Made by a program: the position numbers
From: an uncultured Planctomycetia bacterium
Lineage (GTDB): Bacteria > Omnitrophota > Gorgyraeia > Tantalellales > Tantalellaceae
Length of the DNA: 51,710 bases
Direction: 5' to 3'
Assembly: GCA_964527555.1 (NCBI GenBank)
Contig: CAZGOG010000009.1
Span: forward strand, 1-51,710
Part shown: one piece after another, positions 41,401-50,400 of the stretch
How the letters are laid out: each line of letters starts with the position of its first letter
Position numbering within the stretch: the stretch's first letter is position 1

Positions 41401-44400
41401 TGTTCGGCAATACCGCTGATCTTGAAAGAATAGAAGAGGCAGGTATCGCTGTTATAGAGGACTGTGCCCAGTCCGTAGGAGCCATGTATGGCGAGGTGCG
41501 CACGGGAAGTTTTGGCAGGTTCAGTATAATGTCCTTTTATGCCACCAAGATGATGGCTTGCGGCGAGGGGGGGGCGCTTCTATCCAATGACGAAAAGATT
41601 CTCATGTTTGCGCGTGATATGCGCGACTATGACGAAAAAGACAGTTACAAAGTCCGTTATAATTACAAGATGACGGATGTGCAGGCGGCCATGGGTCTGG
41701 TGCAGATGAAGAAGCTTCCCGGCATGATCCAGAGAAGAAAAGAAATAGCTTCCCGTTATGACGAGGCTTTTAAGGACCTTGAGATCATCCTCCCCAAGGC
41801 GGAGTTCGATCATGTGTATTACAGGTATGTGATAAGGACTGAGAAACCTCCCCAGGAAGTTATATCCTCCATGAAAGAAAAAGGCATTATTTGCGCCCGT
41901 CCCGTTTTTAACCCGCTTAACAGGTATCTTGAGATGCGAAGCGGCTTCAGGAATACGGATGAAGTTTTCTCAAGCGCCGTCTCCATCCCTATTTATCCCG
42001 CTTTGACCGGCGAAGAGGAAAAGAGGATCATTGAAGGTGTTAAGGAAAGTTTTATCTCTTATGAATAAGATTCCGTTTCCCACGACAGTAGATTTTGCCC
42101 TTACAGGAAAATGCAACCTGAAGTGTAAACATTGTAACACTTCTGACACATGGGATCTTAAGGAAGAGCTTTCTTTTAAAGAGATACTCAGTGTGCTTGA
42201 CCAGCTCAAAGAAGAGAAGGTATTTAACCTTAATCTTTTCGGGGGCGAACCGTTCTCTTATCCAAAAATCCATGAGTTGTTTGAAGAGATCAACAGTTAC
42301 CCTCTCAGAATAAGCATCCTGACCAACGGTACCTTGATAGACAAGGCTTCTATGAAGTCTCTTAAAGGCCTGAAGTTTCTGTCTAATATCCAGGTGAGTA
42401 TAGACGGATCGAATGCTGCTATCCACGACTGGCAGAGGGGGCAAGGGTCTTTTTGCAGGTCTATAGAAGCAGTAAAATCGCTTATCAAAAATGATTTACC
42501 TGTTTCAGTGAAAGCCATCATAAACATGCATAATTACAGTGATATCGAGAATATGGTCAAGCTGGCCCTGAGTCTGGGCTTGAAAAGCATGGATTTTGGT
42601 GATGCGGTTGAATGCGGACGAGCGGCTCTTTATAGCAGTGATATGTGTTTTGAAGGCAGATTACACCGGGATATAGTAAACGGGATGTTTTATCTCAGAA
42701 AGAAATATCCTCATTTTCACTTCGGCGGGACTCTATCACAAAAAATGGAAATGTTAAAAGACTTTTATTCAAAAGGCCCGGGGGGAGGCGGAAGGGGGAC
42801 TTTTTCAACCTGTCCCGCCGGGCAAAACATGCTTTCGATACGTTCAGACGGTAAAGTAGTCCCGTGTTCGGCGTTCTGGACATTGATATGCGGTGATATA
42901 AGAAAAGATTCGCTTAGGGAAATATGGAATAATTCGGAGCTTCTTGACCAAATAAGACGTCTTGCCGATGAGCCGCTGGTAAAATATAACAAAGAATGCA
43001 ATGAATGCGATTATCTTTCTTACTGTAACGGCGGTTGCCGGGCAGCTGCGTATTATTCTGCAGGTAACGACCTAAAAGGCATTCTCAAAGCTAATTGTCT
43101 GGTTTTTTCGAGCCTTTACGGCTATAGAGCGTCGAAAGAGACAGTATTAGATGGAGCTAAAGATGATGAAGAGTTCTGTAAAGTACGAAATGAAACATGT
43201 TGATCGAAGCAGTCCCGCTCTAAACAGTCTTTATATAAATGTTACAGGGTACTGCAATTTAAACTGTAGACATTGCTGGATAGCGCCTCCTCATAAAGAT
43301 AAGCTTGACGGGGAGGGGGAGATGTCGGCTGAAGAAATGGTAGAAATAGTCAAAGCCGCCAAAGATCTGGGCTTAAGTTCTATTAAGCTTACGGGCGGGG
43401 AGCCGCTTTTAAGAGAGGATCTGGAGCCTTTGCTGAGGTTTTGCGATGAATCTTATATTAATGTCGATATGGAGACGAACGGGACGCTGATAAGCAGGGA
43501 TGTCGCGAAGATGTTAAGGAAATATAATATCGGCCACATCTCTTTAAGTCTGGATAGCCCTTATGAAAAGATGCACGACTTTTTCAGAGGTCAAAAAGGC
43601 GCTTTTAAACGAACCATTAACGGCATTAAAAACTTACAACATGAAAAATTATCCCCGCAGGTTATCATGACGCTTTATAGAGAGAACTTGCCTGAATTTA
43701 AGAATTTTCTCCGTTTAATGCAAGAGATGTATGTGAACGATATAAAAATAAACATTATTTCGCCGTTAGGCCGGGGGCTGCTATTAAAAGAGGAAAAAGA
43801 AGTTCCGACGGTAAGAGAAGTTCTTGATTTCTCGGAAAAATTGAAAAACATCAAAAAGTCTTTTAAAGGAAAGATTTTTCTGGATATACCCATGGCGTTT
43901 ACGGATATAGGTGAGATCAAGTGTCATGGTTGTGCTGTCTGCAGTATTAAAAACATACTTGGGATCCTCTCTGACGGGAGCGTCTCGATCTGCGGGATAG
44001 GATACCTGGACACGGGTCTTATTTTCGGTAATATAAAAGAAGATCCGTCCCTCCTGAAAGACATCTGGACTAGCACCCCGATGCTTAAGACCGTGAGAGA
44101 AGACATTCCTGCAAGACTTGAAGGTGTTTGTAAAATATGTGTTTTCAAAAAAGCGTGTATTGGTAATTGCAGGGCGGAAGTCTATCACAATACCGGAAGC
44201 CTTTTCAGCCCTTATTGGTTTTGCCAGGAAGCTTATGATAAAGGGCTTTTTCCGTCTACAAGACTTCTCCCGGAAGCGTTAAGAGGATGATATGGTTGAA
44301 TTTAATTTAGAGTCTCTCGGGGTATCGATTAATCTGAGCTTTCAGAATTTTAAGAACGATACATTAGCCGGCAGTCTCATTCCGCTGAAAAAAGGGACAA

Positions 44401-47400: not shown

Positions 47401-50400
47401 AACGACGGCTTTACTCCAAATGTTTGAGGGCCTGCCGGGCTAATATTTTATCTTTGATGAAAAGAATAGTAAAAGGCCAGAGCATGCATCCATTTCTTAA
47501 AATGATGGATGTATGTATTACCAGAGAGATCACCCCGCCGCAGATAAACCCCGGCGATATAATCGTTTACAGAAGTGCCGGTAGCGATTTACTCAATGTC
47601 CACCGGGTTTTGAGTAAAAACGAAAAAGAAGGGCATTTTTTGGTTAAAGGCGACAATGTTCCTTATAGCCGTCATGAGAGAGTGGCTTCTGCGGGAATAA
47701 GAGAAAAAGTCCGCCTTGTAAAAAGAGGCGAGAAAGTTTTCAATCTGGAGAGGTTTCCCAGTAAATATACCGCAGGGCTTTTAGCGTTTTTATCCAGGCG
47801 AGACCTTATGCCGACTCTTTTTAAAAGAAAGTTCATCGATCCTATCCTTTTAGGCGTATCCGCTAGTCCCTTTTTTGCATCTATCAGAAAAATGTTTTAT
47901 GCAGATATATCTTTCATGAAGAAAAAGGAAGGGGAAGCATGCCGCGTCTACGCATTTGCAGGCAAGGGAAGAAGCGCTGAAGCTATATTGCACCTTAAAG
48001 AATCAAAAGGAGTATTTATCAGTTCATACATAAGGTACAGGGACAGAAACCCCTCCTTTGCCGAGAAGTTCATGAAAAAGATCGTGGATATCTCTGATAG
48101 CGAGTACGGCTCCCAGCATAATATATACATAACCGATAATGTGTTAAGTGGACTTATCCAAAGGGGAAAGGGTCTGTCCTTAGGGAGCAGGATACGCCTT
48201 CCATAGGATACTTCATTATGAAGCAGTTAAACTTATACCCGGCACTCGAGGTTTCTTTTTCTCGTTTAAGCCCGGAAGAAAGACTTGTTATTTTATGTTC
48301 CCGGATGGAGATGCCTCAGAAAAGCGAAGAGCTTGCTAGGGGTCTCATTTTGGAGGAAAGGATTGACTGGGTTTATTTCATCAAGCTTACCAGGCTTTAT
48401 GCGACAGCGCCGCTTATTTACAGGCACCTGCAGTCGTTCGGAAAACTAATCCCCGAAGCAGTGATGCAGTCGCTGAGGGGCAGCGCGGGCTTTGTTTTTG
48501 CGCGCAATATTAAATATTTTAATAATGTGAAGAGCCTGGCGGATATGTTCAATAAAGAAGGCCTTGAAGTCATTTTTATGAAGGGCGTTGTTTTTATGAT
48601 AGACCTCTACAGGGAAAAAGGGCTCAGGGATTTCTCAGACATAGACATACTTATCAAGCAGGAGGATCTGGCTAAGGTTGAAAAGCTGGTAAAGAGAAAG
48701 GGGTTTAAGCCCTATAATAGACGCGGGATATTTAACCGTTACCGCTCGCAGAGGGTATACTCCCTGGATGGCAAACTCTGTCTTGATATCCATCTCGATC
48801 TTATCGGCAGAAAGATGCACAACAGGCTGATAGGCATCAATAAAAAGGATCTATGGTCGAAAAAAAGGAAAGTGTCTTTGGAGGGGACGCACCTCTACGC
48901 TTTAGACACCTCCCATATGCTTATTTATCAGTCGATGCATCTGGCGATGCAGCATGGTTTCTCGGGACTCAAGTGGTACGTGGATATACATGAGCTGGTA
49001 AGGTCTTACAAGATTAACTGGGCGGAAGTTGTGCGTCTTGCTAAGAGTTACAGGGTAGCTCGCCCGCTTTATTATACGCTTTTATTTACGAGAAATATGT
49101 TTGCGACTCCTATTCCGGAAAAGGTTCTAGGCGAGCTTGGTAAGATACAAAGAAAGTTCGATCGTTATCTATTAGAAAAGATCAAGTCAAGAAACGCCGA
49201 GACCGATTACCTGGCGGAGCTATTCATGTTTGACAGGATGCGGGACACCATAAAGTTTATTTTCCTTTCCCTTATTGCGTACCCGTATTTAATCGGACAC
49301 TTCGTCGTAATTTTTGGTAAAATACTTAAGTCTATACTGCCGGGGCGTAAGCCTATGGCGGTTTCATCCTAGTCAGGCGGAAAGAGGTATTTGCATGCGA
49401 AAGTGGTACTTGAGGATAATGTGGTGGCTGGTTACTTTATTGTACCTGGCTTTGATTTATGCGACTTTGTCCATAGCGCCTTTGATATGGGCGGTTTTTG
49501 ACGACTTTTTCCTTGGCAACGGGATGCTGATATTATATACATGTTTTATCGGCATAGGAGTCTGGCTTCTCCATTATATGATCAGCAGAAAAAAAGAAAG
49601 AGCCGTAGAAATATATCTTTTATTTTTTTTACTCATACTCATAACATACGTCCTCAATAAAATGGCAATCCGTCCTGCGGAGAAGATACACCTTCTTGAG
49701 TATGGCCTCTTAAGCGTTCTTGTCTATAACGCGCTAAAGATTGACTTAAATCGTTATGGTATAATACTTTACGTTCTTGGAACTATTTTTTGTTCATTAG
49801 CCGGATTTTATGATGAAGTCATCCAGCGCTCTTTGCCCGGCAGGTATTTCAGCTGGAGGGATGTTTTAGTGAATAGTGCCAGCAGCCTCCTTGGGTTCGT
49901 AGTAATACGGTTTATCGTGCTTAGGAAAGACCAAAATCCTTTACAAACGGGCGCAGATAGTGATAGAATATTTTGGAAGATGTCTTGGAAATGAGAAGAA
50001 ACATCAAACGCAGGAAAGATAAGTCCATGACGAAACATAAAAGGGTAGTCATAGCCGACGACAATAAAGAGCTTTGCGAGCTTATAGTCGATATACTGGA
50101 AGGATCCGGTTATGCGGTGGATTCCGTTTATAACGGTTATGAGCTTTTGGCATATTTAGAGACCAACAATCCCGCGGTCATCATTTTGGATCTCATGATG
50201 CCCGATAAAGGAGGACTTTCCATACTGGATACCCTGAAACAGGTCTCTCCCTATTCCCGGGTTATCATTTACACCGGATATAATGAATATGAAAACAGCG
50301 TCTATGCCCGTGCGGCGGATCGTTTTCTGGTGAAAGACGGCAGGGTAGAGGATCTTATTAATGCCGTCAAGGAACTTGCGTAGACCGGGTTATGACGTTT

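What a model noticed while it worked through the whole genome (the two positions that open the first line are those of the whole stretch)
42061..49372. Seven-repeat CxxG precursor of a dual radical-SAM RiPP cassette inside a capsule locus
An unannotated 100-aa gene (C9:47125-47427) has a Y-x-P-P leader and seven C-x-x-G motifs ten residues apart, within a cassette of two SPASM radical SAM enzymes, an RRE, an HprK-like kinase, a peptidase, an ABC exporter and a nucleotidyltransferase, itself inside the polysaccharide locus. I read it as a heavily thioether-stapled repeat RiPP attached to or exported with the surface glycan. It would define the substrate rule (CxxG decad repeats, 3-8 copies) for the unstudied SynChlorMet-type maturases across several phyla.
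Evidence so far: Best models ScmE and ScmF, below cut-off. All seven C and G invariant in four precursors of ~30% identity. CxxG-repeat peptides in 15 of 19 ScmF loci, incl. KSB1, Anaerolineaceae, Saganbacteria, Endomicrobiales (six tandem copies); the four misses are loci of 8 kb or less. Wzy/Wzc/glycosyltransferase neighbours in G166, G164, G139.
(Added by a program. Inside this text positions count along the whole contig: contig position 1 is position 1 of the stretch shown here. "Call 12" and the like, gene names such as g00115 and contig names such as C1 are that model's own, and its searches are not shown. The text may have been shortened before it was handed on; [...] marks where a part breaks off. 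The agent that wrote the report below was given it as the finding of a first reader that could run no searches.)

Follow-up and report, generated by a model that had tools for sequence, protein, structure and literature searches.

The report
Seven-ring peptide cassette in glycan island
A conserved 100-residue peptide with seven cysteine-x-x-glycine repeats and its seven neighbouring enzyme and transport genes form a divergent copy of a database-named but untested peptide-modification cassette, likely stapling each cysteine to the glycine three residues on, and in this bacterial family it is present or absent together with the surface-polysaccharide genes beside it.

Summary
Observation confirmed, with one correction: the seven CxxG motifs are spaced 10,10,10,12,10,10. 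The gene is real: 12 relatives carry it in the same slot, and all 86 Cys of the 13 orthologues lie in CxxG. The cassette is a divergent SynChlorMet (Scm) system. Both radical SAMs fall below cut-off but group with over-cut-off ScmE/ScmF. The peptide is the long form of ScmA (33 of 105 homologues hit TIGR04252), not a new precursor type. The family is large (1,042 clusters at 50% identity), and I found no paper on it. Best reading (0.55): unnested Cys-S-to-Gly-Cα rings, as in streptosactin Cys31–Gly34. The leader would be cut at a conserved [AV]xA site by the S26 peptidase, with phospho/sugar tailoring as in pseudomycoidin, then export. Chemistry is untested. The glycan link is real but not obligatory. 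In this family the cassette and a 34-kb polysaccharide island come and go together (13 empty sites), and one relative holds a different peptide cassette in the slot. In another phylum Wza is near ScmF in only 4 of 30 genomes (0.3 expected). Attachment to the glycan is not shown. This scan met the family before on other DNA (19 findings).

The parts
47125..47427 (+). Precursor peptide, 100 aa, ScmA-related: basic N-terminus, YxPP leader, seven CxxG repeats
47114..47119 (+). Ribosome-binding site AAGGAG of the precursor; a G-rich site lies upstream of all 13 orthologues
47146..47157 (+). Y-x-P-P leader motif (Tyr8 and Pro11 invariant), predicted RRE-binding site
   Evidence: complex prediction weak support
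47194..47202 (+). V-H-A (residues 24-26): [AV]-x-A motif, predicted S26 cleavage site ending the leader
   Evidence: 13 of 13 family precursors; shuffle mean 3.3, maximum 9; cleavage itself inferred
47212..47409 (+). Core with seven C-x-x-G motifs starting at 47212, 47242, 47272, 47302, 47338, 47368, 47398
42061..43203 (+). Radical SAM/SPASM protein, ScmE orthologue (below cut-off); CxxxCxxC plus seven SPASM Cys; overlaps the DegT stop by 8 nt
43151..44290 (+). Radical SAM/SPASM protein, ScmF orthologue (below cut-off); seven invariant SPASM Cys; near-invariant active-site lining W-T-E-S-G-I/V
44292..45101 (+). HprK-like kinase, ScmC counterpart; His119, Walker A Lys140, acidic pair Asp-Glu intact
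45086..46831 (+). ABC exporter (membrane plus ATPase, no peptidase domain)
46842..47114 (+). PqqD-type RiPP recognition element, ScmD best model
47424..48206 (+). S26 (signal-peptidase-I-like) peptidase; G-x-S-M-x-P and H-R motifs kept in orthologues
48218..49372 (+). NTP_transf_5 nucleotidyltransferase with D-x-D motif; the only copy in the genome
15921..42068 (+). Surface-polysaccharide locus upstream (WecA-like GT, ExeA-like ATPase, HD protein, Wza, Wzc, Wzy, Wzm/Wzt, glycosyltransferases, AsnB, epimerase, PHP-like protein, WbqC, PIG-L, DegT); one island with the cassette
49395..49994 (+). VanZ-family membrane protein closing the island before the response regulator and tgt

Best explanation
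[quoted passage not shown] Shown: the genes, their order and intact catalytic motifs, orthology to ScmE and ScmF, and the invariance of Cys and Gly+3. Inferred steps: (1) the RRE binds the YxPP leader; (2) ScmF, whose active-site lining is near-invariant like the CxxG motif itself, is the more likely ring-former, and ScmE, whose lining differs between clades, would add a second change; (3) the kinase phosphorylates and the nucleotidyltransferase adds a sugar or nucleotide to the phosphate, as PsmK and PsmN do in pseudomycoidin, but at a site other than a C-terminal Ser; (4) the S26 peptidase cuts after Ala26; (5) the ABC transporter exports a 74-residue product. Odds: RiPP precursor of this cassette 0.95; Cys-Gly thioether 0.6; phospho-sugar tailoring about 0.4; any functional tie to the glycan locus (shared sugar donors or co-display) about 0.35.
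For: In 132 short homologues 866 of 903 Cys have Gly at +3, while spacing between motifs varies (mostly 9-13). The first Cys has Gly+3 in 123 of 132 and the last in 126 of 132, but Gly at -7 of the first Cys in only 4; this points to pairing inside each motif (the set was found with a CxxG-rich profile, so it leans that way). Motif number is odd or even (3-14), which argues against fixed disulfides. Precedent: the SPASM enzyme GggB makes a Cys31-Gly34 alpha-thioether in streptosactin (PMC8172795, passages); StsB makes Cys-Gly sactionines, and Gly can only link at the alpha-carbon (PMC10288494, passages). The best sequence match of the ScmE and ScmF profiles among solved structures is the sactionine synthase SkfB (E 1.2e-41 and 7e-24). 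Both enzymes keep seven SPASM Cys. Across 401 genomes of another phylum, the precursor profile hits 27 of 33 genomes with ScmE or ScmF and 2 of 368 without (kin are not independent). [AV]xA precedes the first Cys in 13 of 13 family precursors. The kinase keeps the His-Lys-Asp-Asp pattern of lasso tailoring kinases as His-Lys-Asp-Glu (PMC9266682, passages). PsmK/PsmN give phospho-hexose peptide (PMC6993621, passages). RRE plus leader (residues 1-40): weak support, score 0.50 against best control 0.02, runs agree in at least 90% of contacts, partner pLDDT 56. The mark is reached by 116 of 157 solved and 2 of 215 mismatched pairs, but at 0.60 or under by only 18 solved pairs and both mismatches, and likeness to solved RRE-leader complexes may drive it. 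The core has no predicted fold (pTM 0.20).
Against: No chemistry was tested. Similarity to SkfB is generic: by fold the ScmE model is closest to SuiB (a Lys-Trp crosslinker), with anSME, PqqE and CteB near, and NCBIfam ranks WgkB, AhbD and NirJ above any sactisynthase model. The six active-site positions of PMC10288494 (section 7) match neither reference well: ScmE N-F-L-S-S-A and ScmF W-T-E-S-G-I against CteB F-F-T-S-H-Q and StsB Y-T-I-S-K-L (mapped by motif, not by superposition). One reaction does not explain two enzymes. 0 of 13 family precursors end in Ser and no Ser/Thr position in the repeat is fixed, so the kinase's acceptor is unknown. I did not compare the kinase or nucleotidyltransferase with PsmK/PsmN by sequence. 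[AV]xA is found in only 41 of 128 wider homologues (shuffle mean 16.5). Earlier notes report cassettes without radical SAM genes that keep CxxG (not checked here).
Confidence: 0.55

Rival explanations
1. Same RiPP cassette, other radical chemistry at CxxG: Cys oxidation (formylglycine or thioaldehyde, as anSME), epimerisation, or a link from Cys to another residue, with Gly needed only for a tight turn. The kinase could then act on the product of that step.
For: anSME, SuiB and PqqE are as close by fold as thioether enzymes. ScmF has an invariant Trp/Glu lining unlike CteB or StsB. Position +6 is also biased (Ala 57%, Pro 20%), and 18 of the 37 non-CxxG Cys have Gly at +4. Only Cys and Gly are fixed, so a kinase acting on each repeat has no Ser/Thr to use.
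Against: Strict Gly at exactly +3 with free x-x and free spacers fits a ring of fixed size, and that ring has a precedent.
Confidence: 0.28
2. The product is covalently tied to, or displayed with, the surface polysaccharide: kinase and nucleotidyltransferase build a phosphodiester link to a sugar from the neighbouring locus. This adds to the best explanation rather than excluding it.
For: Cassette and glycan genes form one island absent as a whole at 13 of 17 tgt loci of ScmF-negative relatives. All 15 family genomes with the island's DegT have a peptide cassette or pieces of one. G022 holds a different YxxP/RRE/kinase/nucleotidyltransferase cassette in the same slot. Wza lies within 10 kb of ScmF in 4 of 30 genomes against 0.31 expected; Wza/Wzc/Wzy flank 8 of 34 long metagenome loci.
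Against: 26 of 30 genomes lack a nearby Wza, and 18 of 34 long loci show no clear glycan gene. Four of the eight Wza/Wzc loci share one gene order. Adjacent genes are lost by one deletion, and the tgt tree has no well-supported branch. The cassette has its own exporter.
Confidence: 0.15
3. The cassette is a passenger in a variable envelope island, and its product is a free secreted peptide with no use for the glycan genes.
For: Many Scm cassettes sit among unrelated genes (Kdp, BREX, PolA, transporters). The cassette (GC 0.42) differs from the glycan part (0.45) and flanking core genes (0.49-0.52).
Against: It is kept intact in the same slot across 13 genera at 51-67% ScmF identity while the glycosyltransferase set changes, and the enrichment near Wza/Wzc recurs in another phylum.
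Confidence: 0.5
4. The peptide is not ring-closed but acts as a metal- or cluster-binding scaffold, or as precursor of a small cofactor (PQQ/mycofactocin style).
For: Free-standing PqqD and two SPASM enzymes resemble cofactor pathways; Cys-rich.
Against: Variable repeat number (2 to over 20), variable x positions, an exporter and a leader peptidase; no CxxC pairs; no predicted fold.
Confidence: 0.07
5. The ORF is a chance or low-complexity feature.
For: The exact sequence is not in the 15-billion protein collection, and a word-based search scored no homologue.
Against: Shuffles, 12 syntenic orthologues with ribosome sites and mixed Cys/Gly codons, and 1,042 clusters by profile.
Confidence: 0.01

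Closest known systems
SynChlorMet (SCM) cassette, NCBIfam TIGR04248 ScmD, TIGR04249 ScmC, TIGR04250 ScmE, TIGR04251 ScmF, TIGR04252 ScmA
   Same: Two SPASM enzymes, PqqD-type RRE, kinase-like ScmC and a Cys-rich precursor; the Scm model is the best hit for ScmE, ScmF, ScmD and ScmA; both enzymes group with over-cut-off members.
   Different: All five score below cut-off; the precursor is twice the 49-position model, with seven repeats; S26 peptidase, nucleotidyltransferase and exporter are not among the Scm models that matched; fixed position in a glycan island. The models are predictions; I found no experimental paper.
Type 2 (unnested) sactipeptides: streptosactin (GggB), suisactin (QmpB)
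   Same: Four-residue Cys(i) to acceptor(i+3) rings, one of them Cys31-Gly34, made by a SPASM enzyme.
   Different: Two rings in a 14-mer from one enzyme, against up to seven here with two enzymes, a free RRE, kinase and nucleotidyltransferase; relatedness to GggB was not tested.
Paeninodin/pseudomycoidin lasso clusters (PadeK, PsmK, PsmN, B1, ABC)
   Same: YxxP leader with stand-alone RRE, HprK-like kinase, uncharacterised nucleotidyltransferase, ABC exporter.
   Different: No lasso cyclase or B2 protease in the cassette, an S26 peptidase instead; no C-terminal Ser (0 of 13); radical SAM enzymes present.
StsA/StsB and BlaA/BlaB Cys-Gly sactipeptides
   Same: Conserved Cys and Gly as donor and acceptor; the StsB model hits both enzymes weakly (118 and 108 bits, cut-off 625).
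   Different: Nested hairpin topology with distant pairs, not tandem CxxG.

Membership tests
SynChlorMet cassette | ScmE (TIGR04250) over cut-off 400 | tested here: not met
   210 bits, best model by 58 bits; its clade is sister to over-cut-off ScmE proteins, SH-aLRT 91
SynChlorMet cassette | ScmF (TIGR04251) over cut-off 400 | tested here: not met
   325 bits, best model by 167 bits
SynChlorMet cassette | Enzymes orthologous to bona fide ScmE and ScmF | tested here: met
   12 ScmF-like rows, two of them over cut-off, form one clade with support 97 (quick tree, 28 rows)
SynChlorMet cassette | ScmD and ScmC present | tested here: inconclusive
   ScmD best model 45/100; ScmC 15.6/125, behind HprK_rel_A; the kinase aligns with over-cut-off ScmC at invariant His and GK[ST]T
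SynChlorMet cassette | ScmA precursor (TIGR04252, cut-off 35) | tested here: inconclusive
   Window 10.9 bits; 16 of 20 neighbours' precursors hit it at E<5, best 30.4 bits; 33 of 105 homologues at E<=0.01, best 4.3e-9
Sactipeptide (type 2) | Radical SAM enzyme with SPASM/twitch domain | tested here: met
Sactipeptide (type 2) | Alternating Cys donors and conserved acceptors | tested here: met
   86 of 86 Cys in 13 orthologues and 866 of 903 in homologues have Gly+3; met as a sequence pattern only
Sactipeptide (type 2) | Sactisynthase-like active-site residues | tested here: inconclusive
   At most 2 of 6 identical to CteB or StsB; GggB's residues were not given in the text I read
Sactipeptide (type 2) | S-Calpha thioether bond in the product | not testable with these tools
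   Needs mass spectrometry, desulfurisation or NMR
Ranthipeptide (PapB/QhpD type) | Acceptor with beta or gamma carbon (Asp/Glu/Thr) at fixed distance | tested here: not met
   The only fixed partner is Gly
Phosphorylated lasso peptide cluster | Lasso cyclase and B2 protease in the cluster | tested here: not met
   None in the cassette; the AsnB at 26209 has a glutaminase domain and scores 344/267 as asparagine synthase, 207/525 as lasso cyclase
Phosphorylated lasso peptide cluster | Kinase with His-Lys-Asp-Asp | tested here: met
   His119, Lys140, Asp-Glu; Asp-Asp in several orthologues
Phosphorylated lasso peptide cluster | C-terminal Ser on the precursor | tested here: not met
   0 of 13 family precursors; 25 of 132 wider homologues

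The most novel reading that the evidence does not exclude
A ribosomal peptide stapled by seven tandem Cys-Gly thioether rings, phosphorylated and joined through a phosphodiester to sugar from the neighbouring locus, so that it is a building block of the cell surface rather than a secreted antibiotic. The distal slot of the glycan island would take interchangeable peptide modules (Scm here, a B2/B12-radical-SAM module in G022) that share RRE, peptidase, kinase, nucleotidyltransferase and exporter.
Probability: 0.13. Interest if true: 0.85.

Novelty: new variant of a known kind. Interest (0 to 1): 0.5.

Why it matters
The Scm cassette is named in NCBIfam, but I found no experimental study of it, and its precursor family spans about a thousand clusters at 50% identity. 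This copy is complete in 7.3 kb, has one precursor and a clear rule (Cys, Gly+3, leader ending in [AV]xA), so it can be expressed and read by mass spectrometry directly. An enzyme that closes seven or more rings on a four-residue motif with free x positions would be a programmable peptide stapler. The joint presence and absence with a polysaccharide island, and the swapped module in a relative, give a testable lead for what the widespread kinase/nucleotidyltransferase pair does. Without that link it is an ordinary new member of an unstudied family.

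Tried and rejected
Word-indexed homologue search with the precursor: 5 candidates, none scored; the profile search was needed. No ScmF match on plasmids at E 1e-50. TIGR04252 searched directly in five genomes: 0 of 5, although some hold CxxG peptides, so the model is narrow. A folded beta-solenoid or disulfide ladder: not supported, pTM 0.20 and core pLDDT about 44 (weak, since modified peptides are not modelled). Long top hits of the profile search (P0001, P0002, P0005, P0008-P0010 and others) are unrelated tandem repeats without the leader and were dropped: statistics use the 132 hits of 200 aa or less among the best 150. 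Promoter and terminator scans were within two standard deviations of shuffles (34 vs 26.3, 23 vs 16.2). The tgt tree could not resolve gains from losses: quick mode, no starred branch, labels no more clustered than shuffles. Active-site profiling was inconclusive, and my pattern for positions 5-6 caught the wrong Cys in several rows, so those were read. No RNA holder listed. A PEP-CTERM reading of the glycan locus: those models score below cut-off and the genome has one marginal PEP-CTERM hit. A lasso peptide made by the locus's AsnB was rejected. Literature searches with no hit: SynChlorMet (9), TIGR04250 (13), radical SAM + CxxG + precursor peptide + thioether (24), radical SAM + SPASM + Syntrophobacter + Chlorobium + precursor peptide (53), two of ScmE/ScmF/radical SAM (68), TIGR04085 + SPASM + PqqD + repeat + precursor (93). 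Omnitrophota + RiPP + radical SAM gave two listings, seen as listings only (86). The one supplement held for PMC10288494 has no Scm term (104). The library lacks most subscription journals, where RiPP chemistry is often published, so this is weak evidence of absence. That paper's larger supplemental dataset may not be in the file searched and could bear on novelty.

Full report
1. Observation. The ORF at 47125-47427 encodes 100 residues: a Lys-rich start, Y-E-P-P at 8-11, and seven Cys, each followed by Gly three residues on. Seven CxxG arose in 0 of 200,000 shuffles of the peptide and 1 of 200,000 of its core, and no other of 8,470 short six-frame ORFs in the genome has four. The seven neighbours are as described, on one strand with junctions of -53 to +11 nt, and ScmE overlaps the stop of the upstream DegT gene. 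A public contig covers 40000-50500 in one piece; its three differences in the precursor are, by my reading of the codons, two silent changes and one change just before the last Cys. Upstream lie a WecA-like transferase, an ExeA-like ATPase, an HD protein, Wza, Wzc, Wzy, Wzm/Wzt, about ten glycosyltransferases, AsnB, an epimerase, WbqC, PIG-L and DegT; VanZ, a response regulator and tgt follow. The closest named loci are titled Omnitrophota, two of them Planctomycetia; the lineage is inferred from those.

2. The gene is conserved. ScmF matches in 15 of 36 family genomes and 0 of 24 other genomes of the class. In the 12 whose contigs reach far enough, the precursor sits between the RRE and the S26 gene; three contigs end earlier. 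The 13 precursors have 5-7 motifs, all 86 Cys in CxxG, mixed codons and a G-rich ribosome site. A profile of 20 precursors finds 1,042 clusters at 50% identity (E<=0.001); some are unrelated repeats. Among the 132 hits of 200 aa or less in the best 150, 866 of 903 Cys are in CxxG, 127 have an aromatic-x-x-Pro leader, and 10 is the commonest spacing (439 of 733). CxxG peptides lie in 47 of 80 metagenome ScmF loci (20 of the 28 of 9 kb or more). They also lie in 27 of 32 stretches around ScmF from the phylum of a genome titled Deltaproteobacteria; four of the five misses have one elsewhere in the genome. Across those 401 genomes the precursor profile hits 27 of 33 with ScmE or ScmF and 2 of 368 without, both leaderless.

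3. What it is. Each Scm model except ScmC is the best NCBIfam hit for its gene, and all are below cut-off. In a quick tree of 28 rows the window's ScmF joins a clade (support 97) with two over-cut-off ScmF proteins, and its ScmE clade is sister (91) to over-cut-off ScmE. A cassette over the ScmC, D, E and F cut-offs (L046) has a 75-residue YxxP peptide with four CxxG. Orthologous precursors hit ScmA up to 30.4 of 35 bits, and 33 of 105 homologues at E<=0.01. It works like an Scm system; formally it fails the cut-offs. Three of nine homologues looked up carry a name, each 'hypothetical protein'.

4. Mechanism. Leader: Tyr8 and Pro11 are invariant. A predicted RRE-leader complex gives weak support (0.50, best control 0.02, partner pLDDT 56, runs agreeing in 90% of contacts; such low passes came from 18 of 157 solved pairs and both passing mismatches of 215). 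Cleavage: [AV]-x-A stands 2-3 residues before the first Cys in 13 of 13 family peptides (shuffle mean 3.3, maximum 9) and 41 of 128 wider ones (mean 16.5, maximum 28). That is the signal-peptidase-I rule (recalled), and the S26 gene keeps its Ser and His motifs. Rings: Gly is fixed at +3 while spacers vary, and first and last Cys both keep it, which fits a link inside each motif. GggB forms such a Cys31-Gly34 alpha-thioether (PMC8172795, passages; PMC9389541 and PMC13361665, passages), and Cys-Gly sactionines are known from StsA (PMC10288494, passages and sections 7 and 10). SkfB is the top solved relative by profile, but by fold SuiB, anSME and PqqE are as near, and the six active-site positions match neither CteB nor StsB well. 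Those positions are near-invariant in ScmF across 19 sequences and vary by clade in ScmE, so I favour ScmF for the invariant motif. Against that, three genomes show ScmE without ScmF, two with precursors, possibly through incomplete assembly. Tailoring: the kinase keeps His, Walker A Lys and an acidic pair, like lasso kinases (PMC9266682, passages), and the nucleotidyltransferase keeps D-x-D. PsmK and PsmN make a phospho-hexose peptide (PMC6993621, passages). But no family precursor ends in Ser, so the acceptor differs. All chemical steps are inferred.

5. The glycan link. For: of 22 family genomes examined for the slot, 21 had tgt and I fetched 17 of those loci. Thirteen show queA or the PAS kinase directly beside the regulator and tgt, so the whole 34-kb island, glycan genes and cassette, is missing; one holds other genes and three contigs are too short. 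The island's DegT is in 15 of 36 family genomes, 13 with ScmF. G013 has a precursor fragment with the nucleotidyltransferase and VanZ. G022 has in the same slot a different cassette: YxxP peptide of 51 aa, RRE, transglutaminase-like protease, kinase, SPASM and B12 radical SAMs, nucleotidyltransferase, ABC genes. In the other phylum Wza lies within 10 kb of ScmF in 4 of 30 genomes against 0.31 expected, and 8 of 34 metagenome loci of 7.9 kb or more have Wza, Wzc or Wzy, with sugar-related genes in 8 more. Homologues of the island's HD protein (10 loci) and ExeA-like ATPase (4 loci) recur beside Scm genes elsewhere. Against: 26 of 30 and 18 of 34 show no such neighbour, several positives share one gene order, one deletion can remove adjacent genes together, and the tgt tree is unresolved. 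The association is above chance and not obligatory; covalent attachment has no direct evidence.

6. Known or new. Six keyword searches found no paper on the Scm system, in a library that lacks most subscription journals. The family is therefore catalogued but, as far as I could see, untested. This scan has noted the family in at least 14 other genomes (19 findings); a search adding the glycan and lineage words found none. What this locus adds, from my own tests: a fixed orthologous slot across 13 genera, the all-or-none island, the swapped module, the [AV]xA site and the case for ScmF.

7. Verdict. Real, well supported as a precursor, a new variant of a known kind. Best mechanism 0.55; interest 0.5; the glycan-anchored reading 0.13, worth 0.85 if true.

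Noticed in passing
L051:6800-13346 (G022) and L185:1313-5900 (G005): A second, unnamed peptide cassette: 51-54 aa YxxP peptide with three Cys, RRE, Transglut_core3 protease, HprK-like kinase, SPASM radical SAM and nucleotidyltransferase; in G022 also a B12 radical SAM and ABC genes, and it occupies the Scm slot. No NCBIfam match for either peptide.
   Followed up: partly
L037:2-8021 (G004, second cassette): A bona fide Scm cassette (ScmC, E, F over cut-off) directly follows a run of membrane proteins with TPR repeats that look like TMTC-type mannosyltransferases (likeness recalled; Pfam listed only TPR among the top five). L126 has a TMEM260-like mannosyltransferase after the exporter.
   Followed up: partly
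P0015, P0017, P0029, P0069: Giant homologues of 214-280 aa with 16-21 CxxG repeats; three of the four show the leader.
   Followed up: no
L058:5817-6218, L061:2182-2592, L068:2504-2962: A subfamily with 13-17 Cys but 7-9 CxxG, next to a conserved unknown membrane protein also found in L050.
   Followed up: no
L005:1-6422, L006:6867-12324, L085, L091: A B12-binding radical SAM precedes the Scm genes in several loci (Pfam-checked in L006, L085, L091); L005 (titled Desulfobacteraceae) shares the PHP-WbqC-PIG-L-DegT run of this window before its cassette.
   Followed up: partly
L001:3943-5820: S26 peptidase and nucleotidyltransferase are fused in one 625-aa frame in G033, and probably in G013 (668-aa frame).
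   Followed up: no
window:1002-1463: LAGLIDADG endonuclease ORF near the contig start.
   Followed up: no
window:31637-31736: A 100-N scaffold gap inside the glycan locus, 10 kb upstream of the cassette, breaking a methyltransferase-like ORF.
   Followed up: no
L154:12205-12693: A precursor with a long Gly-Thr dipeptide run between leader and CxxG core, possibly an assembly artefact.
   Followed up: no
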